Part shown: positions 2,530-58,902 of the stretch, piece by piece
How positions within the stretch are numbered: position 1 is the first letter of the stretch
Layout: each line of letters starts with the position of its first letter
NCBI GenBank assembly: GCA_009784895.1
Contig: WQXJ01000003.1
Coordinates: forward strand, 17,602-81,601
Reading direction: 5' to 3'
DNA length: 64,000 nt
Source: Micrococcales bacterium
GTDB lineage: Bacteria; Actinomycetota; Actinomycetes; Actinomycetales; WQXJ01
Notes under the pieces: model-generated
What the model was told of the DNA's origin: nothing
The model's database searches: none
Seen by the model: only the letters and a program-made list of their open reading frames with translations
Program-made: the position numbers and the translations under genes

Positions 2530-4502
2530 TGGCTCATCTGCTTGGCGCCCAGTCGCTGTCGCTGACCTACCCCAATCGCGTGGTCTTGGACCAGGTCTCC
2601 CTGGGGCTGAGCGATGGCGACCGGGTCGGTGTAGTCGGTCGCAACGGCGACGGCAAGTCCTCCTTGCTGGGTCTGCTGGCTGGGCGTCTATTGCCCGATG
2701 CCGGCCGGGTCACCCACCCTGGTGATGTCACGATTGGCCTTTTGGAACAGACCGACCACTTGGACGCCCAGGCCACCGTCCGCCAAGTGGTGGTTGACGG
2801 CGCAGCTGACCACGTCTGGGCAGGGCAGGGCCAGGCCCGCGAGATCATGACTGCCCTGCTGGCCGATGTCCGGCTCGAGACGCCGGTAGGTGAGTTATCC
2901 GGCGGCCAGATGCGCCGAGCGGCCTTGGCCCGGATCCTATTGGGCAGCTGGGATGTGCTATGCCTAGACGAACCGACCAACCACCTAGACATGGTGGCCA
3001 TTACTTGGCTGGCCGGCCACCTGCGGCAGCGCTGGCCACCTGGGCGCGGCGCCCTGCTGGTAGTGACCCATGACCGCTGGTTCCTTGATCAGGTCTCGAA
3101 TGCAACCTGGGAGGTGCACAGTGGCCAGGTGACCGCCTTCGAAGGCGGTTACGCCGCCTACGTGCTGCGCCGAGTCGAACGCGACCAACAGGCAGCTGCC
3201 CAGGCTCAGCGCCGCCGGTCGTTGCTGCGCAAGGAGCTAGCCTGGCTGCGCCGCGGTGCTCCAGCCAGGACGTCAAAGCCAAAGTTCCGCCTGGACTTGG
3301 CCGAGGCCCTGATCGCCAATGAGCCGCCACCGCGCAACCAGGTCGAACTGGAACGTTTGGCCATGTGCCGCCTGGGCAAAGACGTGGCCGAGCTTGATGA
3401 CGTCACCGCCGGCTTCAATGGCCGGCCGGTACTAAGCCACGTCAATTGGCTGATTGGCCCCGGCGACCGGATTGGCCTGCTCGGCGCCAACGGCGCTGGC
3501 AAAACCACCTTGCTAAGCCTGGTCGCAGGGTTAATGAAACCCATGTCCGGACGGGTCAAACGCGGCAAAACTGTCCGCGCGGCGACCCTGCATCAAGACC
3601 TGCGTGAACTAGGTGAATGGGAGGATCAGCCGGTTCGCCAGGTCATGGCCCGGATGAAAGCCAGCTACCAATCAGGTGGCCGGGCGGCCGGAGCTTGGAC
3701 CGGTGGTGGCCGCCAGGCCACACCCGGTTGGAGCGCGGGCAGTCAAGAGATGACGCCTGGCGCCATTTTGGAGCGCCTTGGATTTGGCCCGGCCCATATG
3801 GCGACTTTGGTCCGGTCTTTGTCAGGCGGCCAGCGGCGGCGGCTGCAGTTGGCCATGGTGCTGATGGAAGAACCCAATGTTTTGATCCTGGATGAGCCGT
3901 CCAACGACCTAGACACCGACATGCTGGCCGCCATTGAGGACCTACTGGACTCCTGGCCAGGCACGCTGATCGTGGTGACACACGACCGCTACCTGATGGA
4001 ACGCACCACCGACAGTCAGTGGGCCATCCTTGACGGCCACCTGCGCCACCTGCCGGGCGGCGTTGACCAATTCATCGAGCTGTCCTCCACCAGCCCGCCT
4101 GCCACTGGCGAGGTTGAGCCTAGGCATAAAACCTCACCCAACCAGCCCTCTTCCCGCCAGAGCGAGGTTTGGCCCAAGCCCGGCACCGGCCAACCCCCGA
4201 CCCGCGAGACTGAGCCTTCGCATAAACCCAGCACCAGTCCTGGCCAAGATGACAGCGCCACCAAAGCCCCGGCATCGGACGCCAAAGCCATCCGGGCAGC
4301 CAAGAAACGATTGGCGGCGGTGGAACGACGCCTGGAGCGGCTGCGAGCCCAACGCGACCAAGTCAACGAGCAATTGATCCAGCACGACCCGACCGATTTC
4401 GCCGGCCTGGCTCCGCTGACCACCCGTCTAGCCGAACTGACTGAGGCCATCGCCGCAGAAGAAGACAGCTGGCTCGTCCTGGCCGACCAAGCCGGCCTGT
4501 AA
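2529..4502 (+). CDS. ABC-F family ATPase (two ABC cassettes, C-terminal coiled coil)
   Basis: 657 aa. Walker A motifs GRNGDGKSS and GANGAGKTT, signature motifs LSGGQMRR and LSGGQRRR, Walker B LCLDEPTNHLD and LILDEPSNDLD. The linker before the C-terminal helix carries repeat-derived sequence (see findings). Confidence 0.9.
   Translation: MAHLLGAQSLSLTYPNRVVLDQVSLGLSDGDRVGVVGRNGDGKSSLLGLLAGRLLPDAGRVTHPGDVTIGLLEQTDHLDAQATVRQVVVDGAADHVWAGQGQAREIMTALLADVRLETPVGELSGGQMRRAALARILLGSWDVLCLDEPTNHLDMVAITWLAGHLRQRWPPGRGALLVVTHDRWFLDQVSNATWEVHSGQVTAFEGGYAAYVLRRVERDQQAAAQAQRRRSLLRKELAWLRRGAPARTSKPKFRLDLAEALIANEPPPRNQVELERLAMCRLGKDVAELDDVTAGFNGRPVLSHVNWLIGPGDRIGLLGANGAGKTTLLSLVAGLMKPMSGRVKRGKTVRAATLHQDLRELGEWEDQPVRQVMARMKASYQSGGRAAGAWTGGGRQATPGWSAGSQEMTPGAILERLGFGPAHMATLVRSLSGGQRRRLQLAMVLMEEPNVLILDEPSNDLDTDMLAAIEDLLDSWPGTLIVVTHDRYLMERTTDSQWAILDGHLRHLPGGVDQFIELSSTSPPATGEVEPRHKTSPNQPSSRQSEVWPKPGTGQPPTRETEPSHKPSTSPGQDDSATKAPASDAKAIRAAKKRLAAVERRLERLRAQRDQVNEQLIQHDPTDFAGLAPLTTRLAELTEAIAAEEDSWLVLADQAGL
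4108..4224. repeat. Two copies of the dispersed repeat inside the ABC-F gene (degenerate copy 4108-4128; copy 4203-4224), GCGAGA-first orientation on the + strand
   Basis: GCGAGGTTGAGCCTAGGCATA and CGCGAGACTGAGCCTTCGCATA, translated as GEVEPRHK and RETEPSHK. Confidence 0.7.
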
Positions 4503-4599
4503 CCAGCCCAGTCCCGGCGGGAGGCAGGTTTGGCAGAATGTCCAACAGCACAGTCTCGCGGCAGCCAAGGATGCCGGTGCCGCGAGCCGAGGCAGGAGG

Positions 4600-5151
4600 T
4601 TGGACAAAGTGGCTGAGGCGAACCAGTCAGCATTCCGGGCCGAATACCACACCCTGGTGGTGGCCGCCTGCGAGTGGAGGGCCATGCAAGCCGACCCAGA
4701 GGTGCTGGCCGGGCGGGTCTTTGATCGCCTGGCCTGCCAGAACGCAGCGCCCGATCTGCACCAAGCCTTCCAGCTGGTCCAACAGGTCGTTGACGAGACT
4801 TATCGGGAAGACTCGGGCCGGCGCACAATCATGGAGGCGATCGCCGGCTCGCGCGGCGCTCCGCTGCCAAACGAACCGGCAGATAGTCAAGAGGCAGGCG
4901 CTTTGCGCCAGGCCCTGGCCCAGTTGGGCCGGCGGGAACGAGAGATCCTGCAACTGGCTTACTGGGATGAACTGGCGCGGCCGGAGATTGGCCTGGTGCT
5001 GGGACTCGAGGCCGTCGCGGTCGAGACCTGGCTCGAACGGGCCCAAGCCAGATTCGCCTTGCTGGCAGGGCGCCGGACCGGCATCGATGCGACCGGCGCC
5101 GATTCACCTGGCCTGCTGCGCTCGATCAAACCCGGTAACCGCAGCCGTTAG
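4600..5151 (+). CDS. Sigma-70 family (ECF-like) RNA polymerase sigma factor; divergent region 2
   Basis: 183 aa. Region-4-like HTH segment LGRREREILQLAYWDELARPEIGLVLGLEAVAVETWLERAQARF. TTG start. An alternative-frame ORF at 4538..5164 looks compositionally non-coding. Confidence 0.5.
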   Translation: MDKVAEANQSAFRAEYHTLVVAACEWRAMQADPEVLAGRVFDRLACQNAAPDLHQAFQLVQQVVDETYREDSGRRTIMEAIAGSRGAPLPNEPADSQEAGALRQALAQLGRREREILQLAYWDELARPEIGLVLGLEAVAVETWLERAQARFALLAGRRTGIDATGADSPGLLRSIKPGNRSR

Positions 5152-5179
5152 CAATAAGACTTGACCAGGCGCTGGGGTC

Positions 5180-6100
5180 CTAGCGGGCCAGCGGTCCAGG
5201 CGCCGGACCGGTGACAGTGTGGCAGCGCAATTCGGGGTTGGACTGGCCAATCACAGTGGCCAAATGCCTGGCGTGGGCCGGGCCGGCCGCCAGCACGGCC
5301 ACAGTTGGCCCCGAACCGGTGACGATGGCACCCAGCGCCCCAACTTCCTTGGCCAACGCGATGGTTTCGACCAGAGGCGGACAAGCTTCGGTGGCGGCTG
5401 GCTGCAAATCGTTGCGCAGCCATTGGCCGATGTCACCGGCCTCACCTTGGCCAAGAGCCTCGACCAGTTGGCGTGGCGGCTGAGTGGGCAGGCTACGTTC
5501 GGCCCCAGCCCTAGCGCTGTCAAGGCGATCGAAGATAGCCGGAGTCGATAGCCCACCCCCTGGCCGAGTGGCCAAAACCCAATGCAGGGCGGCCGGGCAA
5601 TCTAGGGTCTCGAGCTGTTCGCCGCGCCCCGATCCCAGAGCCGTGCCGCCATCGAGGCAAAAGTTGACATCCGAGCCCAGGCCGGCGGCCAGTTGGTGCA
5701 GTGCCGCCTTATCAAGTCCGGCCTGCCAATAACGGTTGGCCGCCACTAGGGCAGCGGCCGCGTCGGCGCTGCCTCCAGCCAGTCCTCCGGCCACCGGCAC
5801 AGACTTGGTGATGTCGATTTTGACCTCGGCTGGCACACCAGCCACTTGAGCCACCGCGCGGACGGCTCGAACCGCCAGGTTTTCCTCACTCATTGGCACC
5901 AGTGCGCTGTCCAGGCCGTTCACAACCACCTCGATTTTGGCGGCCACCGGCGGTCGCAGCGTCACCTCTTCGTACAAGTCAACCGCCTGGAAGACAGTCA
6001 GGAGCGGGTGGTAGCCATCTGGCCTGGGTGATCCCGCCAGCAACAGCAGGTTGATTTTGGCCGGGGCGGTCACGGTGACATCGGCTATTTGGGTCGTCAT
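5180..6100 (-). CDS. ispE: 4-diphosphocytidyl-2-C-methyl-D-erythritol kinase
   Basis: 306 aa. APAKINLLLLAGSPRPDGYHPLLTVFQAVDLYEEV plus the GHMP-kinase motif PVAGGLAGGSADAAAAL. ATGA start/stop overlap with rsmA. rsmA-ispE synteny. Confidence 0.92.
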   Translation of the reverse strand: MTTQIADVTVTAPAKINLLLLAGSPRPDGYHPLLTVFQAVDLYEEVTLRPPVAAKIEVVVNGLDSALVPMSEENLAVRAVRAVAQVAGVPAEVKIDITKSVPVAGGLAGGSADAAAALVAANRYWQAGLDKAALHQLAAGLGSDVNFCLDGGTALGSGRGEQLETLDCPAALHWVLATRPGGGLSTPAIFDRLDSARAGAERSLPTQPPRQLVEALGQGEAGDIGQWLRNDLQPAATEACPPLVETIALAKEVGALGAIVTGSGPTVAVLAAGPAHARHLATVIGQSNPELRCHTVTGPAPGPLAR

Positions 6101-7215
6101 GGCGCCTCCATCAGTCCAAGAGCCCCGGCAATTCTGGCGAAGTCGGGGGCAGCTAACTGCTCGCCACGCTGCGACGGTTCAACCTTGGCCTTGATTAGGG
6201 CAGCCTCGGCTGCCTCTTTCGAACCGGCCAGTCCCGACAGGGCCGAGCGCAAGGTCTTGCGCCGCTGGGCAAAGGCGGCGTCGATGACCCGGGCCACTGC
6301 CGGGTACTGGGCCGCCTTGAGATGCCCAAGCTCACTTAGGCTGCTGTGGGGTTCGTCAGTTGGGCCCCAACGTTGGAATAGGACAAGCGAACTGTCAACC
6401 CTTGGGACCGGGTAGAAGACGTTTCGGGGCACTTGGCCGGCCAGGCGGGCCGTGCCCCACCAGGCCAGTTTGGCGCTCGGTACGCCGTAGGTCCGCGAAC
6501 CGGGTTTGGCCACCAGGCGGGCGGCTACCTCGGCCTGGACCATGACCAGGGCTTTGGTGATGAAGTCGAAGCGCTCGAGATAGGTCAGCAGCAGCGGCAC
6601 AGCCACGTTGTAGGGCAGGTTGGCCACCAAGGCGGCCGGATTATGCCAAAGCTCGGTCTCGCGGGCTTGGGTGGGGGTATGCGAAAGCTCGGTCTCGCGG
6701 GAATTGGTTGGGCTGGAGGGGGTAGTGGTGGGGTTAGGGCTGGCCGGCAGCTCAGTCACATCCAAAGCGTTGGCCGTCACCACAGTTAGGCGATCGGCCA
6801 GGCCGGCCGCCCGCCCAGCCACTGTCAGGGGCAGTTGAGCCGCCAGGACAGGGTCAAGCTCGATAGCCGTGACATGGTGTCCGGCCGCCAACAGGGCCAA
6901 GGTCAGCGAACCCAAACCGGGGCCTACTTCAATGACGTGGGGGCCGGCATCGGCCAACTTGACAATCCGGCAGACCGTGCCCGGGTCTACTACAAAGTTC
7001 TGCCCTAGTGATTTGGACGGATGCAACTCCAGGCGCCGGCACAAGGACAGGACCTCGGAGGGGCCAAGCAGGCTGACGCCAACCGGCGCCGCATCATCGA
7101 AGCTCAGTACCAGCCCTTTTGCTGGAACGCGCCCCAGGCGCCGCAGGGTGTGGCGTAACGACCCTTGATGTAACCCAAGCCCCAGGCAATTTGTGTAGCC
7201 GGGTTGGTGCGCCAA
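6097..7215 (-). CDS. rsmA: 16S rRNA (adenine1518/1519-N6)-dimethyltransferase RsmA/KsgA, with a repeat-derived internal insertion
   Basis: LGQNFVVDPG, SAM motif VIEVGPGLGSLTLAL, and LVANLPYNVAVP. The only canonical start codon upstream of the conserved core is the ATG at 7215, which overlaps the upstream gene by 112 nt, so the start is uncertain. Confidence 0.88.
   Translation of the reverse strand: MAHQPGYTNCLGLGLHQGSLRHTLRRLGRVPAKGLVLSFDDAAPVGVSLLGPSEVLSLCRRLELHPSKSLGQNFVVDPGTVCRIVKLADAGPHVIEVGPGLGSLTLALLAAGHHVTAIELDPVLAAQLPLTVAGRAAGLADRLTVVTANALDVTELPASPNPTTTPSSPTNSRETELSHTPTQARETELWHNPAALVANLPYNVAVPLLLTYLERFDFITKALVMVQAEVAARLVAKPGSRTYGVPSAKLAWWGTARLAGQVPRNVFYPVPRVDSSLVLFQRWGPTDEPHSSLSELGHLKAAQYPAVARVIDAAFAQRRKTLRSALSGLAGSKEAAEAALIKAKVEPSQRGEQLAAPDFARIAGALGLMEAP
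6642..6699. repeat. Repeat doublet (6642-6663 TATGCCAAAGCTCGGTCTCGCG; 6678-6699 TATGCGAAAGCTCGGTCTCGCG) inside rsmA
   Basis: Two 22-mers differing at one base and starting 36 nt apart. In the gene sense they read RETELSH..RETELWH. Confidence 0.9.
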
Positions 7216-8484: not shown

Positions 8485-9384
8485 TCACCAGGTTCCGTAG
8501 ACCGCCTCAGAATTCGCGCTGACCTGGGCACATGCGGCCTCGAGTGGCATTGACATGGCGCTGGCCAGGCGCCGCATAGTCAGTGCCGCTAGGTATGGGG
8601 CATTGGCCCGGCCGCGGTACGGTTCGGCCGTCAGGTAGGGGGCGTCGGTTTCCAGAAGCACGCCCGATGCCGGCAGCTCGCCGACCGCCTCGACCAGGCC
8701 TTTGGCGTTGGCGAAGGTAATGGTTCCGGCAAAGGAGCAGTACCAGCCTCGCTCGGCGCAGATACTGGCGAGTTCGGCGCCGGCCGAGAAGCAGTGGAAA
8801 ACGGTGCGTTCCGGCGCGCCGACCGCCTCGAGGGTTTCGACCACCTCGCGGTGGGCGTCACGGTCGTGGATTTGAAGGGCCAGGCCCAACTCCTTGGCCA
8901 GGGCGATGTGGTCCTTAAAGGCTTCGATTTGGGTGTGGTGGTGTTCGGGGCCGGTGCGGTAGAAGTCCAAGCCGGTCTCGCCAATTGCTCTGACCCGCGG
9001 GTTGTCGATGGCCCATTGGCGGATCTGGTTGAGTCCGTCTTGGTAGGCGCCCTTGGCCTCAAGCCTGGGCGCTTCATTGGGGTGAATGGCAATGGCGCCA
9101 AGTACGGCGGGGTTCTTGACCGCTTCGGTGGCGGTCCAGTAGGCCGAGTCCAGGTCGCAGCCGCATTGGACTATCCGATCCACCCCCACGGCGCTAGCCT
9201 TTTCGACTTGACTATCCAAGCTCAGGGCCGGTCTGGGCCACTGGCCTGGCTCAATGTGGGTGTGGTTATCCACCACCGGCGCCGGCAGGGGTTCCGGCAG
9301 CGGCGGGTATGAACGGTCCTTGGCCAATTTGGCTGTCCCCCTGTCCGCCGCGCCCACCCCAACCGCGAGGTCGAGCTTTCGCAT
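8485..9384 (-). CDS. TatD family metal-dependent hydrolase
   Basis: 299 aa. The VVDNHTHI metal-binding start, GETGLDFYR, and other TatD-family histidines/aspartates (QIHDRDAH, FHCFS, LETDAPYL). Confidence 0.88.
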   Translation of the reverse strand: MRKLDLAVGVGAADRGTAKLAKDRSYPPLPEPLPAPVVDNHTHIEPGQWPRPALSLDSQVEKASAVGVDRIVQCGCDLDSAYWTATEAVKNPAVLGAIAIHPNEAPRLEAKGAYQDGLNQIRQWAIDNPRVRAIGETGLDFYRTGPEHHHTQIEAFKDHIALAKELGLALQIHDRDAHREVVETLEAVGAPERTVFHCFSAGAELASICAERGWYCSFAGTITFANAKGLVEAVGELPASGVLLETDAPYLTAEPYRGRANAPYLAALTMRRLASAMSMPLEAACAQVSANSEAVYGTW

Positions 9385-9462
9385 GACATCATGCCAGGCC
9401 TCAACCTCGCGGGTGTTGGTGCTGCTGAGCTCGCCGGTGGTGGGGCCGCCTGGCGCGGCCGG

Positions 9463-12064: not shown

Positions 12065-12098
12065 CCTGCACTAATACCGCGAGACTGAGCTTTGGCAT
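12065..12098. repeat. 34-nt repeat copy immediately after the pncA stop (CCTGCACTAATACCGCGAGACTGAGCTTTGGCAT)
   Basis: 32/34 identical to 58868-58901. Contains the GCGAGACTGAG variant of the repeat core. Confidence 0.9.
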
Positions 12099-12154
12099 GG
12101 GGGCCGGTGCGGAGAACATGGGCCGGGGCGGAGGACATGGGCCGGTGCGGAGAA
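12096..12154. repeat. Three tandem 19-21-nt units (CATGGG(GG)CCGG(T/G)GCGGAG(A/G)A)
   Basis: Read directly: catgggggccggtgcggagaa / catgggccggggcggagga / catgggccggtgcggagaa. Confidence 0.85.
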
Positions 12155-12315
12155 AGCGGCGTCGTCTCGCGCCGTGACTTGGGGCGATGCGACGCATCGC
12201 CAAAGTCACATGCCCGGAGCCAAACCCTGACGACGCCCCTTACCCCGCCCCTCTTTTTTGGGCCCTTGGGTTTCGTGCAAAAGCTCAGTCCCGCAGTGGA
12301 GGAGGGGTCTGAGCT

Positions 12316-13245
12316 TTAGGTTTGGTGGCGGGCTGCTAGGACCGCTTGGTAAACGGCCCGGCGCGAATAACCGTGAGCGGCGGCCTCGGCGGCGGCTGCG
12401 TCTTTGAGGCTGTCGCCGGCCTCGACGCGGGCTTCTACCGCCACCACCACGGCCTGTGGGACGTCAGGGGTCTCCACCTCTTGGCCGCCTTCAAGGTTAA
12501 GGTCTGCCACTACCGCCTGCGGTCCCTGGGCTTGGGTGCCGCGCGCCTGGCTGGTTTGGGCGCCGGCGACTACCACTGTGACCTCGCCAAGTACGCCGTG
12601 GCTGGCCCAGTCGGCTAGCTCGGCCAGCGAACCGCGACGAACCTCCTGGTGAACCTTGGTCATTTCGCGGCAAACCGCTCCGGGCCGGTCTGGGCCAAGG
12701 TGGTCGCGCAGCTCGGCCAGGGTTTGGCCAAGGCGGCGCGGCGACTCGAAAAGAACGATGGTGCGCCGCTCGGTCGCCAATTCCTCCAGCCGGCCGCGCC
12801 GGCCTTTGGATCTAGGCAAGAAGCCTTCGAAAACGAAGCGTTCGGCCGGCAGGCCAGACAACAGCAGGGCCGTGGTGACGGCGCTTGGACCAGGTGCCAC
12901 GCCCACGTCTAGCCCGGCATCAATCGCCGCCCGAGTCAAAACAAAGCCGGGGTCTGAAACCAAGGGAGTACCGGCATCGGACACCAAGACCACCAGACCC
13001 GAACGCGCCGCCGCCAGCAGCTGCTCCACCCGGGAACGCTCATTATGGTCATGCAGCGAGACAATCCGCCCGCCAGGCTGGACTTTGAGGCGGCGAGCCA
13101 GATCGAGCAGTTTGCGGGTGTCTTCAGCGGCAATTACATCGGCCTGGACCAGCAGGCGGCACAGATGGGCTGAGGCGTCTTCGGCCCGGCCCAGCGGCGT
13201 AGCGGCGATGACCAAACCGGTTATTGTCCGGTCAGTTCGATCCAT
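12316..13245 (-). CDS. rsmI: 16S rRNA (cytidine1402-2'-O)-methyltransferase RsmI
   Basis: LVIAATPLGRAEDASAHLCRLLVQADVIAAEDTRK..VSDAGTPLVSDPG (tetrapyrrole-methylase fold). I placed the start at the internal ATG at 13245 (MDRTDRT...). The track ORF extends to 13380, but that extension has no family-like sequence. Confidence 0.86.
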   Translation of the reverse strand: MDRTDRTITGLVIAATPLGRAEDASAHLCRLLVQADVIAAEDTRKLLDLARRLKVQPGGRIVSLHDHNERSRVEQLLAAARSGLVVLVSDAGTPLVSDPGFVLTRAAIDAGLDVGVAPGPSAVTTALLLSGLPAERFVFEGFLPRSKGRRGRLEELATERRTIVLFESPRRLGQTLAELRDHLGPDRPGAVCREMTKVHQEVRRGSLAELADWASHGVLGEVTVVVAGAQTSQARGTQAQGPQAVVADLNLEGGQEVETPDVPQAVVVAVEARVEAGDSLKDAAAAEAAAHGYSRRAVYQAVLAARHQT

Positions 13246-14869: not shown

Positions 14870-15121
14870 TTGGAACGACGCACGCTAACGGTGAGGGCTC
14901 TACCGCCTGAAACCTACGAAGGGCTAAAGGAGATCGCTGCCCACCACGGCCGGTCAATGGAGGCTGAGGCGCGCCAGATCCTTCAAAGCAGCACCAACCG
15001 GCTGCTGCGTTGGACCCGGGATGCGGTCCTGGCCGACCTGTCAGGTCGCGCCGATCTGGCTGATCTGGCGACCCCATACGTGCGATCGGCTGATACCCCA
15101 CGGCCAGCTGACCTTAGATGA
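14870..15121 (+). CDS. FitA/VapB-type antitoxin (Arc/RHH-like)
   Basis: 83 aa. TLTVRALPPETYEGLKEIAAHHGRSMEAEARQIL. 4-nt overlap with the downstream PIN gene. Confidence 0.7.
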   Translation: MERRTLTVRALPPETYEGLKEIAAHHGRSMEAEARQILQSSTNRLLRWTRDAVLADLSGRADLADLATPYVRSADTPRPADLR

Positions 15122-15558
15122 AACTGGTCCTTGACACCATGGTCGCCTCCGAGCTTCGGCGAGCCAGGACCGGCCGGGCAAGCCCAGCGTTCGCGGCTTG
15201 GGCCGAAGCGGCTCCACTGGCGAAAGCTTTCATCTCGGTCATCACCCTGCACGAAATGGAGGTTGGCTGTCTGCTGACCGAGCGCCGGGACCCGACGCAG
15301 GGCCTGGTCTACCGGGACTGGCTAGAAATGTTGGTTGAGGCATTCGAAGGCCGGGTAGTCCCCGTCAGCCGGGAGGTTGCTTCGGCAGCGGCTGCCTTTC
15401 ATGTGCCTGATCCGGCGCCCTTCGCTGATGCTCTAATTGCGGCCACAGCGGTGGTGCTTGGCGCCTCGGTGGCAACACGGAACGTTGGTGACTTCGCCCG
15501 CTTTGAAGTGCCATTGGTCAACCCGTGGGATGGCCCTGAGGCTTGGACGGGCGGCTAA
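15118..15558 (+). CDS. PIN-domain toxin (VapC/FitB-type)
   Basis: 146 aa. N-terminal LVLDTMV acidic residue, ITLHEMEVG, FADALIAATAVVLGASVATRNVGDF. Confidence 0.8.
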   Translation: MKLVLDTMVASELRRARTGRASPAFAAWAEAAPLAKAFISVITLHEMEVGCLLTERRDPTQGLVYRDWLEMLVEAFEGRVVPVSREVASAAAAFHVPDPAPFADALIAATAVVLGASVATRNVGDFARFEVPLVNPWDGPEAWTGG

Positions 15559-15594
15559 GTGGCACATCCGCTTTTGTCTCGCGGATTGGGCCAG

Positions 15595-15774
15595 GTGCGG
15601 TACCTCGGTCTCGCTGCAAATGTGGGGTTGACCTGTACTTTTGTCGCGAAGTTGAGCATTGGCAGAGCATTGCCTGTTGCCCGATGCCGGCCCCCACCTC
15701 AGTGTCACGGGCTTGGCCGTGTGCGGTACCTCGGTCTCGCTGCAAATGTGGGGTTGAGCTGTGCTTTTGTCGTG
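15595..15774. repeat. Two 54-nt direct repeats (15595-15648 and 15721-15774; period 126) upstream of ilvD, each containing the CTCGGTCTCGC core
   Basis: GTGCGGTACCTCGGTCTCGCTGCAAATGTGGGGTTGA(C/G)CTGT(A/G)CTTTTGTCG(C/T)G is read twice. Confidence 0.9.
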
Positions 15775-32859: not shown

Positions 32860-33597
32860 TCAAGCGGGCCAAGTGCCAACTGTCTGTTCACCATCTGGGC
32901 AGTTGCCGTTGGCTCGATTCTGTTCAAACAGCTCCACGCCGCCAGCGGTCAGCACACCGTCTACGGACAAGTCGTGAGACTCTCGCGGCAGAGTACCGGC
33001 CGGGTGAACCTCGAATGGGTAAACCACAGCCAAGACCACGGACCCCGACCGGCGGTGGGCCAGCGCGCGGTCGTACCAGCCTCCGCCGCGACCCAGTCGG
33101 GTTCCAGACCGGTCGACCCCCAAGGCCGGCACCATCACCAAGGAACACTGGCTCAATGCCGTGGCCGGCAGATAGGGCGGCTGGGGACTGGGCAACTGTC
33201 CTGGTGGGGCAACTGGCAGGGCGCAGGTTGCGGCCGTGGCCCGCCCCCAGCGCAGCTCTCGGAGCGACGCGCCCGGCGCGGGCAGCAGCAGGCCAAGGCC
33301 TCGGGCGACCAAGTCGCAAAGCAGCTGTCTGGTTGGCGGTTCAGATCCGAACGACTGGTAACAGGCCACGGTCTCCCCCGCCGCCGGCATCAAACCAGCC
33401 AGGCCGAGGTTCCGCATATGCCAAAGCTCAACCTCACGGTCGAAGCGGGGGGTGGGCTGGGCAGTGTGCGAAAGCTCGGTCTCGCGGCAAAAGGCGAGCT
33501 CAGACCGGGGAAAGGTGGTGCACTCGTTGCGGGAGGCGGCATTAGCCAATTCTGACCGTCGCACCAAGGCCGCCTGACGCCACTGATGTTTGTCCAC
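32860..33597 (-). CDS. 5-formyltetrahydrofolate cyclo-ligase with a repeat-derived N-terminal insertion
   Basis: 245 aa. VPALGVDRSGTRLGRGGGWYDRAL is the family motif. Conserved position next to galU. Confidence 0.8.
   Translation of the reverse strand: MDKHQWRQAALVRRSELANAASRNECTTFPRSELAFCRETELSHTAQPTPRFDREVELWHMRNLGLAGLMPAAGETVACYQSFGSEPPTRQLLCDLVARGLGLLLPAPGASLRELRWGRATAATCALPVAPPGQLPSPQPPYLPATALSQCSLVMVPALGVDRSGTRLGRGGGWYDRALAHRRSGSVVLAVVYPFEVHPAGTLPRESHDLSVDGVLTAGGVELFEQNRANGNCPDGEQTVGTWPA
33417..33486. repeat. Repeat doublet inside the 5-FCL gene (degenerate copy 33417-33438; copy 33465-33486)
   Basis: TATGCCAAAGCTCAACCTCACG and TGTGCGAAAGCTCGGTCTCGCG. In the gene sense they read RETELSH..REVELWH. 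Confidence 0.85.
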
Positions 33598-33607
33598 GAA
33601 ATCAAGG

Positions 33608-33704
33608 CTAGGCCAGCCGCCGTGTTGTATGCGAAAGCTCGGTCTCGCGACGGAAGGTGAGACTAGGCCAGCCGCCAGGCCGTGTGCGAAAGCTCGGTCT
33701 CGCG
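33608..33704. repeat. Two tandem ~42-nt units (33608-33649, 33663-33704; period 55), each ending in TGCGAAAGCTCGGTCTCGCG
   Basis: CTAGGCCAGCCGCC...TGCGAAAGCTCGGTCTCGCG is read twice in the 5-FCL/galU divergent intergenic region. Confidence 0.9.
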
Positions 33705-33709
33705 AAAAA

Positions 33710-39796: not shown

Positions 39797-39877
39797 ATCA
39801 CATCAGTGTGATTTGCAGTCCGACACTCCGGCCCGGGTCCGCCTTGGGGGCCATCTGGGCCTCTACCTTGGGGTCAC

Positions 39878-41165: not shown

Positions 41166-41207
41166 CGAGTAAACTCGTCGCCCGTGGCTCGCTCACTGCG
41201 GGGCTGT
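41166..41207 (+). repeat. 42-nt direct repeat, copy 1 (matches 41334-41375, which includes the first 8 nt of tRNA-Ala)
   Basis: CGAGTAAACTCGTCGC(C/G)CGTGGCTCGCTCACTGCGGGGCTGT; 41/42 identical between the copies. Confidence 0.9.
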
Positions 41208-41367
41208 GTAACCACAGTGAACGAGTGAGGTCAAGCGCTAGCCCGAAGGGGTTTGCGCTTGTGCCGAGCGAGGAGCTGTCGACGAGTCCGCAGGACGAGG
41301 AATACAGCTCCTTGATCGCTCGCTACGCACAATCGAGTAAACTCGTCGCGCGTGGCTCGCTCACTGC

Positions 41368-41440
41368 GGGGCTGTAGCGCAATTGGTAGCGCACCTCGGT
41401 CGCATCGAGGGGGTTGGGAGTTCGAGTCTCCTCAGCTCCA
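41368..41440 (+). tRNA. tRNA-Ala (anticodon CGC)
   Basis: Hand fold: acceptor GGGGCTG/CAGCTCC with the G3:U70 alanine identity pair, D-arm GCGC-AATTGGTA-GCGC, anticodon arm CCTCG-GTCGCAT-CGAGG, T-arm GGGAG-TTCGAGT-CTCCT. 73 nt, CCA not encoded. Confidence 0.92.
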
Positions 41441-41507
41441 CTATCGCCTTGGCATGACTTCTGGACATATTATCGATAGTAGGAAACGAAAAAGGAGAAA
41501 ACTGTAA

Positions 41508-49608: not shown

Positions 49609-49652
49609 CAAGGGCCCGGGCGGAGCTGGGAGTGGATTAGTAATTTGTTCCC

Positions 49653-49892: not shown

Positions 49893-49924
49893 GCTCCTGG
49901 CAGCTGGCAGTCCCTGTACCAGAA

Positions 49925-51786: not shown

Positions 51787-52611
51787 ATGATCATCTGGAG
51801 CGATAATATGGCGAGTGGTGCGGGCATCAGCGGAGCGGGCCGAGCCCAACTGACTGCTATTCTCGCAAGCGGACGCCGGTTTGTTACACCTGATCAGGCA
51901 GCTCATGTCCTTGGCGTCGATGCTTGTGTCGCCGCAAAGAGGTTGGCGCGCTGGGCAGATAACGGGTGGCTCCGGCGTGTGCAGCGCGGGCTCTACTTGG
52001 CCGTCCCAGCCGATGCAGCAGACCCGGCCGCCTGGACTGAGAACCCGCTGATCGTCGCGGCGCAAGTCTGGCCTGGCTACTTCACCGGCTGGACGGCTGC
52101 GTCGTACTGGTCGCTGACAGACCAGTCGTCTCGTGTCACGGTGCTGAAGACGACCACACGGGTACGGGCCGCGGCGGTGCGCCTGCTCGACAACGATTAC
52201 CTGATATCCACGGCTGGCGACATGAGCTGGGGGCTCAAGACTCAGTGGTTCGACGAGTACCGCCTTCGATTCGCGGATCCCGCACGTGCCGTCGTCGAAA
52301 TCCTGGATTCCCCCCGCATTGCCGGAGGCATTCGTCATGGCGCAGATATCCTCGCCACCTACCTGACAGACCATGAAGCAGAGACCTTGTTGATCTATTC
52401 GGAACGCCTTGGCAATCGCAGCGTGTTCAAACGCCTCGGATTCTTGGTCGAGACACTGGGTTTGGCACTGCCCGATCTGGTCGAAACTTGCCTCCGACAT
52501 CTGTCAAAAGGCTTGTCGAAGCTTGATCCCGATGGGCCGGCCGGCGGTAGCACGAGCACTCGGTGGCGATTACGCGTGAACGTGCGCATCAGCCCCGAGG
52601 GGCCTTCATGA
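51787..52611 (+). CDS. AbiEi-family type IV antitoxin (N-terminal wHTH)
   Basis: 274 aa. RFVTPDQAAHVLGVDACVAAKRLARWADNGWLRRVQRGLYLAVP resembles AbiEi_4. ATGA overlap with the AbiEii gene. An alternative start exists at 51808. Confidence 0.75.
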   Translation: MIIWSDNMASGAGISGAGRAQLTAILASGRRFVTPDQAAHVLGVDACVAAKRLARWADNGWLRRVQRGLYLAVPADAADPAAWTENPLIVAAQVWPGYFTGWTAASYWSLTDQSSRVTVLKTTTRVRAAAVRLLDNDYLISTAGDMSWGLKTQWFDEYRLRFADPARAVVEILDSPRIAGGIRHGADILATYLTDHEAETLLIYSERLGNRSVFKRLGFLVETLGLALPDLVETCLRHLSKGLSKLDPDGPAGGSTSTRWRLRVNVRISPEGPS

Positions 52612-53789
52612 TCACACGCCGAGAACTCGACCAGTTGCGCGGCGAGTGGTCTCTCGCGGTCGATGTCCTTGAGAAAGACTACGCGCTAGGTTGGACGCTC
52701 GCCGGCATCGCGCAGCACCCGGATCTTGCGTCGATGTGGGTGTTCAAGGGCGGCACCTGTCTCCGCAAGTGCTTTTATGAGACCTACCGGTTTTCTGAGG
52801 ATCTGGATTTCACTGTCGTCGCTAATGGGCCGGAGGAACCGGCTGAGCTTCAGAGCATCTTTGCCGAGGTCGCCGATTGGGTTTACGACGAGTCCGGCAT
52901 TGAGCTGGTGGTCGATGACAGCACGTTCCGGCATGGGGAGAACCGGCGGGGAAAGCGGACAACCCAAGGACGCCTCGCCTACCGAGGACCCAACGCAAGC
53001 CGAAGGACACCGCCGAAGGTGAAACTGGACTTGACCTCGGACGAGGCCGTGGTGCTGGAGCCGGTGACTCGCCGAATCGTTCACCATTACAGCGATGGGC
53101 CGCTACCGGTCCGTGGTGTGCTTGCCTACCCGATCACTGAACTCTTTGCCGAGAAGCTGCGGGCTCTTTCCGAGCGCTGTCGTCCGCGGGACCTCTACGA
53201 TGTGATCTATCTGCATCGGCACCCTGACCTGTATGGAAAAGCCACCGAGGTCGAAGAGGTTCTGCGAGAGAAATGTGCTTTCGTCGGCATCGCGGTTCCA
53301 ACGCTCGAATCACTGCTGACCACGCCATACAGAGTCGAGATTGAGGGCGAGTGGGAGAGCATGCTCGGACACCAATTGCCCAAACCGCTGCCCCCGTTTT
53401 TGAGCCACTGGAACGCTCTCGGAGACGTGTTCGACTGGCTTGCCGGCCTGCGGCAGACGGTCGAGTTGCCGCGCGCTGAACAAGAGGGACTGGACCCTGA
53501 AGGGTTGTCTCCTGTCGCGATCCGGACCTGGGAGCGCGGATTTCCTCTGCAGCTTTTGCAGTATTCCGCAGCTAACCGGCTCTGTGTCGAGGTCAACTAT
53601 CACGCGAAGGACGGCAAGGTCGGTCCGAAAATCGTTGAGCCGTATTCGTTGCGTCGAACCCGTGAAGGCAACTATTTGCTCTTCGTTGTCAACGACCAGG
53701 GCCTTCTACGCAGCTTTCGCGTTGATCGGATCGCCGGCATGCGACCCACGACGCAGACATTTGATCCAAAGTATCGAGTCGAACTCTAA
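52608..53789 (+). CDS. AbiEii/AbiGii nucleotidyltransferase toxin fused to a C-terminal WYL-like domain
   Basis: 393 aa from the ATG at 52608. LEKDYALGW, FKGGTCLRKCFYETYRFSEDLDF (NTase motif). C-terminal VEVNYHAKDGKVGPKIVEPYSLRRTREGNYLLFVVNDQGLLRSFRVDRIAGM matches the WYL-domain pattern. Confidence 0.78.
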   Translation: MITRRELDQLRGEWSLAVDVLEKDYALGWTLAGIAQHPDLASMWVFKGGTCLRKCFYETYRFSEDLDFTVVANGPEEPAELQSIFAEVADWVYDESGIELVVDDSTFRHGENRRGKRTTQGRLAYRGPNASRRTPPKVKLDLTSDEAVVLEPVTRRIVHHYSDGPLPVRGVLAYPITELFAEKLRALSERCRPRDLYDVIYLHRHPDLYGKATEVEEVLREKCAFVGIAVPTLESLLTTPYRVEIEGEWESMLGHQLPKPLPPFLSHWNALGDVFDWLAGLRQTVELPRAEQEGLDPEGLSPVAIRTWERGFPLQLLQYSAANRLCVEVNYHAKDGKVGPKIVEPYSLRRTREGNYLLFVVNDQGLLRSFRVDRIAGMRPTTQTFDPKYRVEL

Positions 53790-55090: not shown

Positions 55091-55110
55091 CCGGAACGCC
55101 GGAGGCGACT

Positions 55111-57435: not shown

Positions 57436-57501
57436 ATTCACGAGTCCGAGGTATCGCATGAGTCCAGGTCAGACCCTCTTCCCGCGAATTTGAGGTATGG
57501 C

Positions 57502-58785
57502 ATGACATTTCGCGGACCCCGACCCAGGCCAGGGCACTGGCTGATTGGAGCGACCTACCTGGGCACCGCGGCCTGTTGGACGTTTTCGACGCCAGTGTGG
57601 GACGTGAATTCCGGGGTTCTGGTCTCCCAACTGCTGGGGGCGCTGGCGCTGACCGGATTCGCCTGGGTGTTTTTCATCGCCACGCGCGCCCGGCCGCTCG
57701 ACGCGCTGTTTGACGGCCTGGACAAGGCCTATCTAACCCACAAGTGGCTTGGAATTGGCTCCGTCGCGCTGGTGGTGGCGCACCTTATCACCATGCATGC
57801 CGCCGATGACCGCCCGGCGGACGGATATGGCCGGCAGCACCCCGAGGGACTTGGCGCACTCGGCCTGCCCAGCCTGGCTTTGTTCGTGGTTCTGGTCCTG
57901 GTGACCCTACTGGCCGGCCGGACAAGCTACGAGAATTGGAAGGCCACACACCTAATCTTGGTCTTGTCCTATGCGCTGGGATTGGCACACTACTCCAACA
58001 CTTCTGCCTACGGGAACTTCAGCCTGTCGCCGTTTAGTCTTTGGCTGAACCTAGTCAACCTCTGCGGTGTCCTAGCGGCCACATACGTGCTTGTCTTCAA
58101 CCGCAAGTTCGCCTTCAGGTACAAATACGAAGTGGCGGCCGTGCGGTCGGTAGCCGTTGGCACTGTGGAACTAACCGGCACGCCAAAGGGCCGTGCCATG
58201 AGCCACCGGCCGGGTCAGTTCGCCTTCATGAAGTTGTCCGGCAGGCGGATTCGATTCCCGTCCCACCCATTTACGATCAGTTCCTCGCCCAAGGCCCAGC
58301 AGATCCAGTTCACCATCAAGTCGCTGGGTGACCACACCGCCCACTTGGGCGACGCCATCGAGGTCGGTGACGAATTCGCCTTGTCAGGGCCGCACGGACG
58401 GTTCGACTACACCAAGGCAAGCCGGCGCCAGCTCTGGATCGCCGGTGGGATTGGAATCACTCCGTTCAGGAGCTTCCTCGCATCAGCTGTCCCGGCAGAG
58501 TTCTCGGTCGACCTGTTCTATGCCTACCACGGCCATGCCCAGGCCGCTTATCTTGATGAGCTGACGGCCATGGCGACGGGCAACCTCCGCCTGCATCTGG
58601 TCGACGACACCGTCGACGGCTTTCTCACCGCCGCCCAGATCGAGCAGCAGATTGACGGTGGGACGCCGGTCGATGTCTTTTTCTGTGGCCCCGAGCCGTT
58701 GCGCCGGGCCATCAAAAGCGGACTGAGGCGCAGCCAAATCGAAGTGCTGAGCTTCCACGCCGAAGCATTCCGCTTTGGCCGCTGA
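57502..58785 (+). CDS. Ferric-reductase-like membrane protein with FAD/NAD(P)-binding domains
   Basis: About 427 aa. Six TM helices with conserved His residues (THKWLG, HLILVLSYALGLAHY), RPGQFAFMKL, HPFTISS (FAD), WIAGGIGITPF (NAD). Confidence 0.8.
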   Translation: MTFRGPRPRPGHWLIGATYLGTAACWTFSTPVWDVNSGVLVSQLLGALALTGFAWVFFIATRARPLDALFDGLDKAYLTHKWLGIGSVALVVAHLITMHAADDRPADGYGRQHPEGLGALGLPSLALFVVLVLVTLLAGRTSYENWKATHLILVLSYALGLAHYSNTSAYGNFSLSPFSLWLNLVNLCGVLAATYVLVFNRKFAFRYKYEVAAVRSVAVGTVELTGTPKGRAMSHRPGQFAFMKLSGRRIRFPSHPFTISSSPKAQQIQFTIKSLGDHTAHLGDAIEVGDEFALSGPHGRFDYTKASRRQLWIAGGIGITPFRSFLASAVPAEFSVDLFYAYHGHAQAAYLDELTAMATGNLRLHLVDDTVDGFLTAAQIEQQIDGGTPVDVFFCGPEPLRRAIKSGLRRSQIEVLSFHAEAFRFGR

Positions 58786-58795
58786 GCCAACACCT

Positions 58796-58902
58796 GTGCC
58801 AAACCTCGGTCTCGCCGCAGAAGGGTGAGTTTGCGAAACCTCGGTCTCGCTACAAAACGCGGGTCCACCTGCACCAACACCGCGAGACTGAGCTTTGGCA
58901 TA
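58796..58902. repeat. Cluster of three repeat copies after the reductase gene (58796-58816, 58830-58851, and inverted 58881-58902; the 34-nt form is 58868-58901)
   Basis: GTGCCAAACCTCGGTCTCGCC, TTTGCGAAACCTCGGTCTCGCT, CGCGAGACTGAGCTTTGGCATA. Confidence 0.9.

What the first reader, a model, noticed from the sequence alone, without database searches (positions are those of the whole stretch)
4108..58902. Dispersed ~22-nt repeat family with invariant 11-mer core CTCGGTCTCGC (at least 16 copies in 64 kb)
The exact 11-mer CTCGGTCTCGC occurs nine times on the + strand, starting at 6652, 6688, 15604, 15730, 33475, 33638, 33693, 58805 and 58840. In the inverse orientation the variant GCGAGACTGAG occurs exactly three times (4204, 12079, 58882). 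At least four degenerate copies also exist (4108-4128, 12275-12294, 12307-12320, 33417-33438).

An 11-mer has about 4.2 million possible sequences, so fewer than one chance hit is expected in 2 x 64 kb.

The extended consensus is (T)(A/G)TGC(G/C)AAA(G/C)CTCGGTCTCGC(G). Copies often come as doublets with a fixed architecture: a GCCAAA-type copy is followed 34-48 nt later by a GCGAAA-type copy (6642/6678, 33417/33465, 58796/58830).

Locations include 3' ends of genes (pncA, the reductase gene), 5' regions (ilvD, galU) and coding sequence. I cannot assign the element to any repeat family I know. It behaves like a REP/MITE-type element or a very frequent protein or RNA recognition site.
Basis: seen in the sequence. 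Interest (0 to 1): 0.72.

Follow-up and report, generated by a model that had tools for sequence, protein, structure and literature searches.

The report
Short dispersed repeat invading actinobacterial genes
An uncultured actinobacterium carries about 22 copies in 64 kb of a lineage-specific 22-base repeat that sits mostly between genes but has also been inserted in-frame into housekeeping proteins; it is a real selfish-DNA-type repeat family of a broadly familiar kind whose way of spreading is unknown.

Summary
CTCGGTCTCGC occurs 9 times (0.05 expected). A profile of the 22-nt unit TRTGCSAAASCTCGGTCTCGCG finds 21 clear units and 1 degenerate unit at 8 loci.

The window is a metagenome contig from an uncultured actinobacterium. 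Its nearest homologues are Micrococcales and Bifidobacteriaceae MAGs, at 50-80% protein identity.

- **Position.** Units are enriched between genes: 14 of 22 lie in the 15% of the window that is non-coding.
- **In-frame copies.** Three loci lie inside genes, always antisense and always read in one frame (RETELSH-like).
  - In KsgA they form a 30-aa insertion that 8 of 9 relatives lack. It is modelled as a disordered loop.
  - In 5-formyl-THF cyclo-ligase they form a 26-aa insertion that all 11 aligned relatives lack.
- **Relatives.** Syntenic contigs of relatives carry no units.
- **Architecture.** The recurrent module is a direct doublet: a GCC-type unit, a G-rich spacer, then a GCG-type unit. 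Some inverted pairs also occur, and one forms a strong hairpin between convergent genes.
- **Family tests.** The unit is not palindromic, I found no convincing target-site duplications, and there is no Rfam, plasmid or phage match. It therefore meets neither the REP nor the MITE definition.

Best reading: a lineage-specific, non-autonomous repeat that behaves like Rickettsia RPEs. Its mechanism is unknown. Interest is moderate.

The parts
4105..4225 (-). Three units (4105-4129, 4152-4177, 4201-4225) with a 48-nt (16-codon) period. They lie inside the ABC-F ATPase gene (2529-4502, +), antisense to it, and are read as GEVEPRH / RQSEVWP / TRETEPSH.
   Evidence: nhmmer scores 14.6, 16.2 and 23.3 bits. 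The units lie in the hypervariable linker before the conserved C-terminal coiled coil, and the frame is kept through to the invariant E645/W648/L649.
6640..6729 (+). A 90-nt in-frame insertion in ksgA/rsmA (6097-7044, -). It consists of a GCC-type unit (6641-6665), a 14-nt G-rich spacer, a GCG-type unit (6678-6702) and a G-rich tail. It is read antisense as TTTPSSPTNSRETELSHTPTQARETELWHN.
   Evidence: The units score 26.1 and 26.0 bits. Eight of nine aligned KsgA homologues lack an insertion here, and the ninth (P0005) has a different one. In the AlphaFold model, residues 106-133 have pLDDT <50 while the rest of the fold is at 80-97.
9361..9414 (.). Head-to-head inverted pair: a GCG-type unit at 9361-9386 (-) and a GCC-type unit at 9389-9414 (+). 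It lies in the metG-tatD spacer. The unit's ATG (9384) was called as the tatD start.
   Evidence: Scores 23.2 and 16.4 bits. TatD of relative L133 starts at MPKDRSY, which aligns to window LAKDRSY (TTG at about 9330), so the units are probably intergenic.
12075..12099 (-). Single unit starting 11 nt after the pncA stop codon (12064).
   Evidence: 24.6 bits; sequence.
12273..12317 (+). A unit (12273-12297) plus a partial inverted copy (12307-12317). Together they form an AAAGCTCAG.CCC / GGG.CTGAGCTTT hairpin. It ends at the rsmI stop codon (12316), with which its last 2 nt overlap.
   Evidence: 17.1 bits. Unit-to-tail duplex z = -2.4 against shuffled tails; fold.
15595..15744 (+). Two GCG-type units (15595-18 and 15719-44) that sit in two copies of a 71-nt segment 126 nt apart (15576-15646 / 15702-15772). 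There is also a degenerate inverted copy (15643-15664, -). The locus lies between a PIN-domain gene and ilvD.
   Evidence: Scores 17.2, 19.0 and 6.8 bits. The 71-nt direct repeat is 87% identical (D9). Terminator-like stems followed by T-tracts are at 15605-15631 and 15730-15758.
33409..33486 (+). A 78-nt in-frame insertion in the 5-formyl-THF cyclo-ligase gene (32860-33597, -). It consists of a GCC-type unit (33416-33440), a 26-nt G-rich spacer and a GCG-type unit (33465-33489). It is read antisense as RETELSHTAQPTPRFDREVELWHMRN. The adjacent 'unit' at 33394-33419 (-) is partly native sequence (LGLAG).
   Evidence: Scores 17.7, 25.0 and 17.9 bits. The insertion is absent from all 11 aligned homologues.
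33627..33706 (+). Two GCG-type units (33627-33650 and 33682-33706), 55 nt apart, each at the end of one copy of a 46-nt direct repeat. They lie in the divergent region upstream of galU and are followed by a G-rich tract with quadruplex-type motifs (33710-33771).
   Evidence: Scores 24.3 and 24.1 bits. The 46-nt direct repeat is 87% identical (D7).
57438..57505 (-). A doublet (GCC-type 57480-57505, GCG-type 57438-57461) that fills the whole 66-nt spacer between the fpg/nei-like gene (stop 57435) and the ferric-reductase-like gene. That gene's ATG (57502-57504) is made of the unit's CATG end.
   Evidence: Scores 17.2 and 17.9 bits. Gene calls are; sequence.
58781..58916 (+). A composite between convergent genes: a GCC-type unit (58795-58819, +), a GCG-type unit (58830-58853, +) and an inverted unit (58879-58903, -). 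The outer units pair, together with flanking bases, into a long hairpin.
   Evidence: Scores 21.1, 21.5 and 25.5 bits. RNA fold gives -69.7 kcal/mol, z = -5.06, and 0 of 200 shuffles fold as well.

Best explanation
This is a lineage-specific family of short, non-coding, non-autonomous interspersed repeats in the genome of an uncultured actinobacterium.

**Building block.** The unit is a 22-nt, non-palindromic sequence (TRTGCSAAASCTCGGTCTCGCG) followed by a G-rich tail.

**Recurrent module.** What appears to have been inserted is a direct doublet of about 57-90 nt. It consists of a 'GCC-type' unit, a 13-26-nt G-rich spacer and a 'GCG-type' unit. Some loci also carry inverted copies.

**History (inferred).** Copies were added to the genome after this lineage split from its nearest sampled relatives. 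They survived where they do little harm:
- in intergenic spacers;
- in-frame and antisense to the gene, in disordered loops or linkers of proteins, where they add Pro/Thr-rich peptides containing RETELSH-like motifs.

**Secondary roles (inferred).** A few copies may have been co-opted. Candidates are the hairpin between convergent genes and the start codon and Shine-Dalgarno-like GAGG upstream of the reductase gene.

**Shown versus inferred.** Shown: the family exists, it is enriched between genes, it is absent at orthologous sites, and it forms in-frame insertions. Inferred: that it spreads by copying, by transposition or recombination driven by an unidentified trans-acting enzyme that recognises the 22-nt unit.
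For: - **Excess over chance.**
- **Independent assembly.** Two loci are identical in a separate assembly.
- **Position.** 14 of 22 units, and 6 of 9 sub-loci, lie in the 15% of the window that is non-coding (p = 4e-7 and 7e-4).
- **KsgA.** The units account for an insertion of about 30 aa that 8 of 9 homologues lack. The model places it in a pLDDT <50 loop on an otherwise confident fold.
- **5-formyl-THF cyclo-ligase.** The units account for a 26-aa insertion absent from 11 of 11 homologues.
- **ABC-F.** The units lie in the hypervariable linker, and the downstream domain stays in frame.
- **Relatives.** Syntenic contigs have no unit at E<=1 and only sub-noise hits (<=3.2 bits) at E<=5. These are L133 (TatD 69% identical by the tool's first-sequence measure, 80% mean column identity), L135, L138 and L132. 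The pncA-rsmI spacer is 251 nt here and 72 nt in L133.
- **DNA-level, not peptide-level, conservation.** Coding copies carry many non-synonymous changes: RETELSH, RETELWH, REVELWH, RETEPSH, RQSEVWP and GEVEPRH.
- **Doublet order.** GCC-type before GCG-type is kept in four clear doublets. Each doublet shares its own variant (AAAG, AAAC or ATAC), as expected if doublets are copied as a whole.
- **No known relatives.** There is no match in Rfam, plasmids or phages, and collection scans return only single hits per contig.
Against: - No transposase, RAYT or other candidate mobilising gene lies in the window (Pfam lists).
- No terminal inverted repeats bound most loci.
- I found no convincing target-site duplication. 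CCGGCC flanks the ksgA insertion, but part of it aligns to native codons.
- Flanks and spacers are poorly conserved while the 22-nt unit is nearly invariant. That pattern is also what selection on a recognition site would give.
- Only 64 kb (plus 5 kb) of this genome could be examined. Two stretches of about 18 and 24 kb have no copy, so genome-wide abundance is not shown.
- No strain polymorphism could be tested.
Confidence: 0.6

Rival explanations
1. The 22-nt unit is a selected cis-acting recognition site rather than selfish DNA. It could be a binding site for a nucleoid-associated or regulatory protein, a DNA-uptake-type signal, or a transcript-end or processing signal. It would be kept nearly invariant by function while its surroundings drift.
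For: The unit is far better conserved than its spacers and tails. Two unit types occur in a fixed order. Copies lie at gene ends and in 5' regions. One composite forms a very stable hairpin between convergent genes. Two copies upstream of ilvD look like stem + T-tract terminators. Neisseria uptake sequences likewise occur as inverted pairs behind genes and inside coding regions (my own knowledge).
Against: - Seven units lie antisense inside three unrelated housekeeping genes, as insertions that relatives lack.
- Units are clustered, with 2-5 per locus and stretches of about 18 and 24 kb without any. That is unlike uptake signals or architectural sites.
- No unit occurs at the orthologous sites of relatives.
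- There is no consensus RNA structure.
- Unit-to-tail pairing is no better than with shuffled G-rich tails on average (mean z = -0.5).
Confidence: 0.25
2. It is a protein-level module. The repeats would exist because the peptide they encode is useful: RETELSH-like in one orientation, or MRKLGLA-like N-termini in the other.
For: All three intragenic loci use the same frame. 20 of 21 units begin with ATG, GTG or TTG in the forward orientation. A gene caller used one unit as the tatD start.
Against: - 14 of 22 units are intergenic, in both orientations.
- Identity at the DNA level is much higher than at the peptide level, with many non-synonymous changes in coding copies.
- The tatD start supplied by the unit is probably spurious.
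- No consistent Shine-Dalgarno sequence precedes forward units (sequences).
- A peptide search with concatenated units found nothing, although that tool's word index is insensitive for such queries.
- Three loci sharing one of three frames has a chance probability of about 1/9.
Confidence: 0.04
3. It is an assembly or contamination artefact: a chimeric metagenome contig, or adapter- or primer-derived sequence.
For: The source is a metagenome assembly. One Logan contig ends 18 nt before a repeat locus.
Against: - Two repeat loci are base-identical in independently assembled Logan contigs of another run.
- Reading frames of conserved genes run through the copies without frameshift.
- Copies are diverged from one another, unlike technical sequence.
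- GC content is uniform.
Confidence: 0.02

Closest known systems
Rickettsia palindromic elements (RPEs)
   Same: Both are lineage-specific small repeats found between genes and inserted in-frame into unrelated housekeeping genes. Both add a peptide compatible with the fold (PMC10969869, citing Ogata et al. 2000, 2002). Here, KsgA and 5-formyl-THF cyclo-ligase carry 30-aa and 26-aa insertions, and the KsgA insertion is in a disordered surface loop.
   Different: RPEs are about 100-150 bp palindromic elements of an alphaproteobacterium. This family is built from a 22-nt non-palindromic unit arranged mostly as direct doublets, and its host is an actinobacterium. I ran no direct comparison with RPE sequences; none is expected to match on composition and host grounds, which is an inference. 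All intragenic copies here are antisense to the host gene.
REP / BIME (repetitive extragenic palindromes; REPIN-RAYT systems)
   Same: Both are short (21-65 bp), G+C-rich, high-copy units that occur singly or in mosaic clusters of two unit types with linkers. Both often lie between convergent genes and can form hairpins that affect transcripts (PMC3184786). The locus at 58781-58916 behaves this way.
   Different: A REP unit is itself an imperfect palindrome and is extragenic. This unit has no internal stem. Its two types are arranged in direct rather than inverted order. A third of the loci are intragenic. No RAYT gene is seen in the window.
MITEs (e.g. Correia, ERIC, Nezha)
   Same: Both are non-autonomous, small and dispersed, and both are occasionally fused in-frame to host ORFs (PMC10969869). 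Two loci have inverted 22-nt ends around a 27-29-nt core (15595-15664 and 58830-58903).
   Different: Most loci lack terminal inverted repeats. I found no convincing target-site duplication. No parental IS was found.
Mycobacterial interspersed repetitive units (MIRUs)
   Same: Both are actinobacterial 40-100-bp direct repeats in spacers between co-oriented genes, with ends that overlap the neighbouring stop and start codons (PMC3184786). The doublet at 57438-57505 fills the spacer and supplies the downstream ATG.
   Different: MIRUs are tandem and oriented with the operon, with about 40-50 copies per genome (PMC3184786). To my knowledge they are not reported inside coding sequences. This family occurs in both orientations, at convergent and divergent junctions, and inside genes. 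I did not compare the sequences directly.
Neisseria REP2 and DNA uptake sequences
   Same: REP2 carries an RBS and an ATG and sits upstream of ORFs (PMC3184786). Uptake sequences are short invariant cores that often occur as inverted pairs behind genes (my own knowledge).
   Different: There is no promoter or RBS consensus in front of the units. Copies are clustered rather than evenly spread. Nothing is known about competence in this organism.

Membership tests
REP / REPIN | The unit is an imperfect palindrome able to form a stem-loop on its own. | tested here: not met
   The variable position (S in GCSAAA) faces the invariant TCGC. Ungapped alignment of 21 units plus 34 nt gives 0 consensus pairs. 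Unit-to-tail duplex energies are on average no better than with shuffled tails (mean z = -0.5).
REP / REPIN | Extragenic location. | tested here: not met
   8 of 22 units lie inside three genes, although intergenic enrichment is strong.
REP / REPIN | An associated RAYT (IS200/IS605-like Y1 transposase) flanked by inverted units. | not testable with these tools
   The Pfam lists of the called genes of the window show none. The rest of the genome is not available.
MITE | Terminal inverted repeats bounding each copy. | tested here: not met
   Only 15595-15664 and 58830-58903 (or 58795-58903) have inverted ends. The other loci are direct doublets, triplets, head-to-head pairs or single units.
MITE | Target-site duplication flanking the insertion. 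| tested here: inconclusive
   CCGGCC flanks the ksgA insertion, but the left copy aligns to native codons of relatives. I saw no shared duplication at the MTHFS or the intergenic loci (sequences).
MITE | A related autonomous IS with the same ends. | tested here: inconclusive
   blastn finds no match in plasmids or phages and there is no transposase in the window. The genome-wide search could not be done.
Rickettsia palindromic elements (as a kind: in-frame inserting repeats) | Copies inserted in-frame in unrelated protein genes, absent from orthologues and compatible with the fold. | tested here: met
   KsgA and 5-formyl-THF cyclo-ligase. The ABC-F linker is consistent but not decisive.
Rickettsia palindromic elements (as a family) | A palindromic element of about 100-150 bp, homologous to RPE-1 to RPE-10. 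| tested here: not met
   The unit is 22 nt and non-palindromic. The inserted modules are 78-90 nt direct doublets. I made no direct sequence comparison with RPEs.
MIRU | Tandem 40-100-bp units in spacers of operons, co-oriented, with ORFs overlapping the flanking stop and start codons. | tested here: inconclusive
   One locus fits in position (57438-57505) but is antisense to the operon. The other loci do not fit.
CRISPR array | Many regularly spaced identical repeats with unique spacers at one locus, usually with cas genes. | tested here: not met
   There are 1-5 units per locus at 8 loci. Spacers are 13-33 nt and G-rich. There are no cas genes in the gene lists.
Known structured RNA (Rfam) | A match to a curated covariance model. 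| tested here: not met
   Only two tRNAs reach gathering score. No hit at E<=1 overlaps a unit.
DNA uptake signal sequences | An invariant short core spread fairly evenly over the genome at about 1 per kb, in a naturally competent host. | tested here: not met
   Copies are clustered at 8 loci, with none in 15.8-33.4 kb or 33.7-57.4 kb. Competence cannot be assessed.

The most novel reading that the evidence does not exclude
The doublet is an actively mobile micro-element of a mechanistically new type. It would be two direct 22-nt recognition units of two fixed types with a G-rich spacer, with no terminal inverted repeats and no palindromic unit. An as yet unseen enzyme in an uncultured actinobacterial lineage would mobilise it. 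It would routinely remodel protein loops by in-frame antisense insertion. That would make it an RPE-like phenomenon in Actinomycetota, for which I know of no earlier description.
Probability: 0.2. Interest if true: 0.65.

Novelty: new variant of a known kind. Interest (0 to 1): 0.45.

Why it matters
**If the reading is right.**
- In-frame colonisation of essential genes by small repeats would not be a peculiarity of Rickettsia. It would also occur in free-living or gut actinobacteria.
- The family is a clean, sequence-defined handle for looking for the enzyme that moves such elements. Its two unit types in a fixed direct order are not what REP or MITE mechanisms predict.

**Practical consequences.**
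- The units generate spurious start codons. The tatD start was called on a unit.
- They may fragment short-read assemblies, though I could not show that here.
- They inflate apparent protein divergence in MAG annotation.

**Caveat.** Lineage-specific small repeat families are common in bacteria. Without a mechanism or genome-wide data, this is an incremental addition.

Tried and rejected
1. **Scan of 185,579 species genomes with the 18-mer.** The 120 loci (0.88 Mb) held 92 hits at <=4 mismatches and none had more than one.
2. **JGI metagenome scan with a 20-mer.** Seven single hits, none with a second unit. The viral scan gave five single hits. The 86.5-kb JGI contig that carries an identical protein was evidently not in the scanned set and could not be fetched.
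3. **Peptide search with concatenated RETELSH-type units.** One candidate, nothing scored. It is uninformative because the word index is insensitive here.
4. **RNA hairpin between the unit and its G-rich tail.** Forward-strand folds are much more stable than reverse-strand folds. However, shuffled tails pair almost as well (mean z = -0.5; only 5 units at or below about -1.8), and there is no consensus structure. I rejected it as a general feature and kept it for 12273-12317 and 58781-58916.
5. **Folds of the ilvD-upstream and galU-upstream regions.** Neither is better than shuffles (z = -0.57 and -0.63).
6. **Target-site duplication at the ksgA insertion.** Inconclusive.
7. **IS or plasmid or phage origin.** No blastn match.
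8. **Sample provenance.** The accession numbers appear in no paper in the library.
9. **Walking beyond the window.** Only 5 kb more of the same genome could be reached, and it holds no further units.

Full report
**1. The observation**

The 11-mer CTCGGTCTCGC occurs nine times on the + strand at exactly the coordinates given. Shuffles give 0.05. GCGAGACTGAG occurs three times against 0.02 expected. The 18-mer GCSAAASCTCGGTCTCGC with up to 3 mismatches gives 18 hits against 0.37 expected.

I aligned the copies in register and built an nhmmer profile.
- It finds 21 units scoring 14.6-26.1 bits. The best hit in five shuffled windows scores 9.6 bits.
- One further degenerate inverted copy lies at 15643-15664.
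- The unit consensus is (T/C)(A/G)TGC(G/C)AAA(G/C)CTCGGTCTCGCG. The 24 nt that follow are 48% G, against 32% for the window.
Its doublet rule is correct.

**2. Source and organism**

- The same sequence is on ENA metagenome contig ERZ27264051:k141_3534734 (65 kb). Parts of it are on Logan contigs of run SRR10512954, and they are identical through two of the repeat loci.
- The window starts 3.7 kb before the ENA contig. It was therefore cut from a longer record, probably the 86.5-kb JGI contig listed.
- The gene order metG-tatD-rpfB-ksgA-ispE, with PMT, rsmI, accE and monomeric IDH, is actinobacterial (my own knowledge, applied to the gene lists).
- The best KsgA and cyclo-ligase homologues are only 50-70% identical. 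Where named, they come from Micrococcales and Bifidobacteriaceae MAGs, Actinotalea, Cellulomonas and Bifidobacterium.
- The host is therefore an uncultured member of that part of the Actinomycetota, with no close relative in the collections.

**3. Anatomy**

There are eight loci.

| Locus | Units | Context |
|---|---|---|
| (i) 4105-4225 | three on -, 48-nt period | inside an ABC-F gene on + |
| (ii) 6641-6702 | two on +, 36-nt period | inside ksgA on - |
| (iii) 9361-9414 | head-to-head pair | metG-tatD spacer |
| (iv) 12075-12099 (-) and 12273-12317 (+) | two, the second with a partial inverted copy | each just behind one of the convergent genes pncA and rsmI |
| (v) 15595-15744 | two on +, one degenerate on -, in two copies of a 71-nt segment 126 nt apart | between a PIN gene and ilvD |
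| (vi) 33394-33706 | five | three in the 5' part of the 5-formyl-THF cyclo-ligase gene, two upstream of galU |
| (vii) 57438-57505 | two on - | fill the 66-nt spacer between an fpg/nei-like gene and a ferric-reductase-like gene |
| (viii) 58795-58903 | +, +, - | between convergent genes |

- **Two unit types.** One has GCC at unit positions 4-6 and the other has GCG. In four clear doublets the GCC type comes first, with periods of 36, 48, 35 and 44 nt. The two units of a doublet share their own variant (AAAG, AAAC or ATAC).
- **No palindrome.** The unit has no internal palindrome.
- **No general hairpin.** Forward-strand RNA folds of unit plus tail look stable. However, the G-rich tails pair about as well when shuffled (mean z = -0.5). 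An alignment of 21 units plus 34 nt gives no consensus pair.
- **Real hairpins at two places.** They occur where an inverted copy follows: 12273-12317, and 58781-58916 (z = -5.06).

**4. Coding copies are in-frame insertions**

- **KsgA.** Aligned with nine homologues, KsgA has extra residues exactly where the two units lie. Eight homologues have nothing there. Codon-level comparison with relative L133 puts the insertion at about 6640-6729 (90 nt, 30 codons). An AlphaFold model gives pLDDT <50 for residues 106-133 and 80-97 for most of the fold, so the insertion is a disordered surface loop.
- **5-formyl-THF cyclo-ligase.** It has a 26-residue insertion (33409-33486) that all 11 aligned homologues lack. 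The neighbouring 'unit' at 33394-33419 is partly native sequence: LGLAG aligns with GLEGV of relatives.
- **ABC-F.** The three units lie in the hypervariable linker before the conserved C-terminal coiled coil. The frame is kept, but an insertion cannot be inferred cleanly.
- **Orientation and frame.** All seven clearly intragenic units are antisense to the host gene and are read in the same frame: RETELSH, RETELWH, REVELWH, RETEPSH, RQSEVWP and GEVEPRH. These peptides differ by many non-synonymous changes. What is conserved is therefore the DNA, not the peptide.
- **tatD.** The ATG of a unit was called as the tatD start. TatD of L133 starts 18 codons further in, at a position where the window has a TTG. 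Those units are probably intergenic.

**5. Distribution and relatives**

- With the gene map assembled, 84.6% of the window is coding. Even so, 14 of 22 units and 6 of 9 sub-loci are intergenic (p = 4e-7 and 7e-4).
- Syntenic contigs of relatives from the same environment have no unit at E<=1 and only sub-noise hits (<=3.2 bits) at E<=5.
  - L133 covers PMT to ispE.
  - L135 covers rimJ-galU-MTHFS to the MTES gene.
  - L138 and L132 cover shorter stretches.
- The pncA-rsmI spacer is 251 nt here and 72 nt in L133.
- The five orthologous sites that could be checked are all unit-free in relatives: the ksgA loop, the MTHFS N-terminus, metG/tatD, pncA/rsmI and MTHFS/galU.
- Relative L132 has a different, sense-oriented G-rich insertion in the very same KsgA loop. 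That loop is evidently permissive.
- Scans of public genomes, JGI metagenomes and viral contigs returned only single hits per contig in unrelated taxa.
- There is no Rfam, plasmid or phage match.

**6. Interpretation**

The best-supported reading is a lineage-specific, non-autonomous interspersed repeat, gained after divergence from the sampled relatives.
- It is kept where it is harmless: intergenic spacers, and in-frame in disordered protein segments.
- The direct doublet appears to be the module that is copied.
- Behaviourally it is closest to the Rickettsia palindromic elements, which insert in-frame in many unrelated genes (PMC10969869).
- It also shares with REP/BIME elements the short G+C-rich unit, the two unit types in mosaics, and hairpins between convergent genes (PMC3184786).
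- It fails the defining tests of REP (palindromic unit, extragenic) and of MITEs (terminal inverted repeats at each copy; target duplication inconclusive). Only one locus resembles a MIRU in position.
- How it spreads is inferred, not shown. No mobilising gene is in the window, and no polymorphic empty site could be examined.

The main rival is a selected recognition site for a protein or RNA. It explains why the 22-nt unit is so much better conserved than its surroundings. It does not fit well with antisense in-frame insertions, clustering and absence in relatives. Readings as a peptide-level module or as an assembly artefact are poorly supported.

**7. Verdict**

The family is real, statistically robust and not assignable to a described family. 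Its architecture is unusual (a non-palindromic unit, and a direct doublet of two fixed types), and its in-frame insertions in housekeeping genes are notable. It is still one more lineage-specific small repeat family. It was seen in 64 kb of one uncultured genome, with no mechanism. I rate it as a new variant of a known kind, of moderate interest.

Noticed in passing
window, 17 sites, e.g. 2693, 8662, 15679, 40841, 61021; also L135 and L133: There is a second over-represented word, GCCCGATGCCGG. With up to 1 mismatch it gives 17 hits against 1.6 expected, on both strands and mostly inside genes (by inspection against the gene map). The related 11-mer occurs 5 times in the 13-kb relative contig L135, and overlapping 11-mers occur 3 times each in L133. 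It looks lineage-wide rather than specific to this genome.
   Followed up: partly
window 41166-41207 and 41334-41375, next to tRNA-Ala(CGC) 41368-41441: A 42-nt direct repeat (98% identical) has its second copy running into the 5' end of the tRNA gene. This resembles an att-type duplication left by an integrated element. The upstream genes (35585-41149) have no Pfam or PADLOC hits. They give only weak NCBIfam matches to a SipW-type signal-peptide domain and to SepX/GlpR.
   Followed up: partly
L132 1768-1850 (ksgA of a relative): The same KsgA loop that carries the repeat insertion in the window carries a different insertion in a relative. It is sense-oriented and G-rich (GAGVGAGAESGVGAGVEAELA). 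Part of its DNA resembles the G-rich tail after the window's unit at 4203.
   Followed up: partly
window 8485-9384 (-): The tatD start was called on the ATG of a repeat unit. Alignment with a relative points to a TTG start at about 9330, so the annotated protein probably carries a spurious 18-residue N-terminal extension.
   Followed up: yes
window 12097-12212: Three tandem copies of about 21 nt (CATGGGSCCGGKGCGGAGRA) are followed by a 17-bp perfect-stem hairpin (gtgacttggggcgatgcg / cgcatcgccaaagtcac). They lie between the two repeat units of the pncA/rsmI spacer.
   Followed up: no
window 42696-42996: Tandem repeats with spacings of mostly 33 and 48 nt encode a Pro/Gln-rich stretch. They lie just upstream of, and in the same ORF as, the called start of the HtrA-like protease gene (43061-44602).
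   Followed up: no
window 51808-53789: An AbiEi/AbiEii-type toxin-antitoxin (abortive infection) gene pair lies here. Two separate PIN-domain genes are also present, at 15118-15558 and beyond the window end.
   Followed up: no
window 1-3690 versus ENA contig: The window begins 3,690 nt before the start of the ENA contig that otherwise matches it base for base. It must therefore come from a longer assembly of the same strain.
   Followed up: partly
P0241 (closest ABC-F homologue), alignment columns 101-178: This homologue has a Gly/Ala/Ser-rich low-complexity insertion of about 77 residues in the first ABC domain that all the others lack. Large low-complexity in-frame insertions may be common in this group of organisms.
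   Followed up: no
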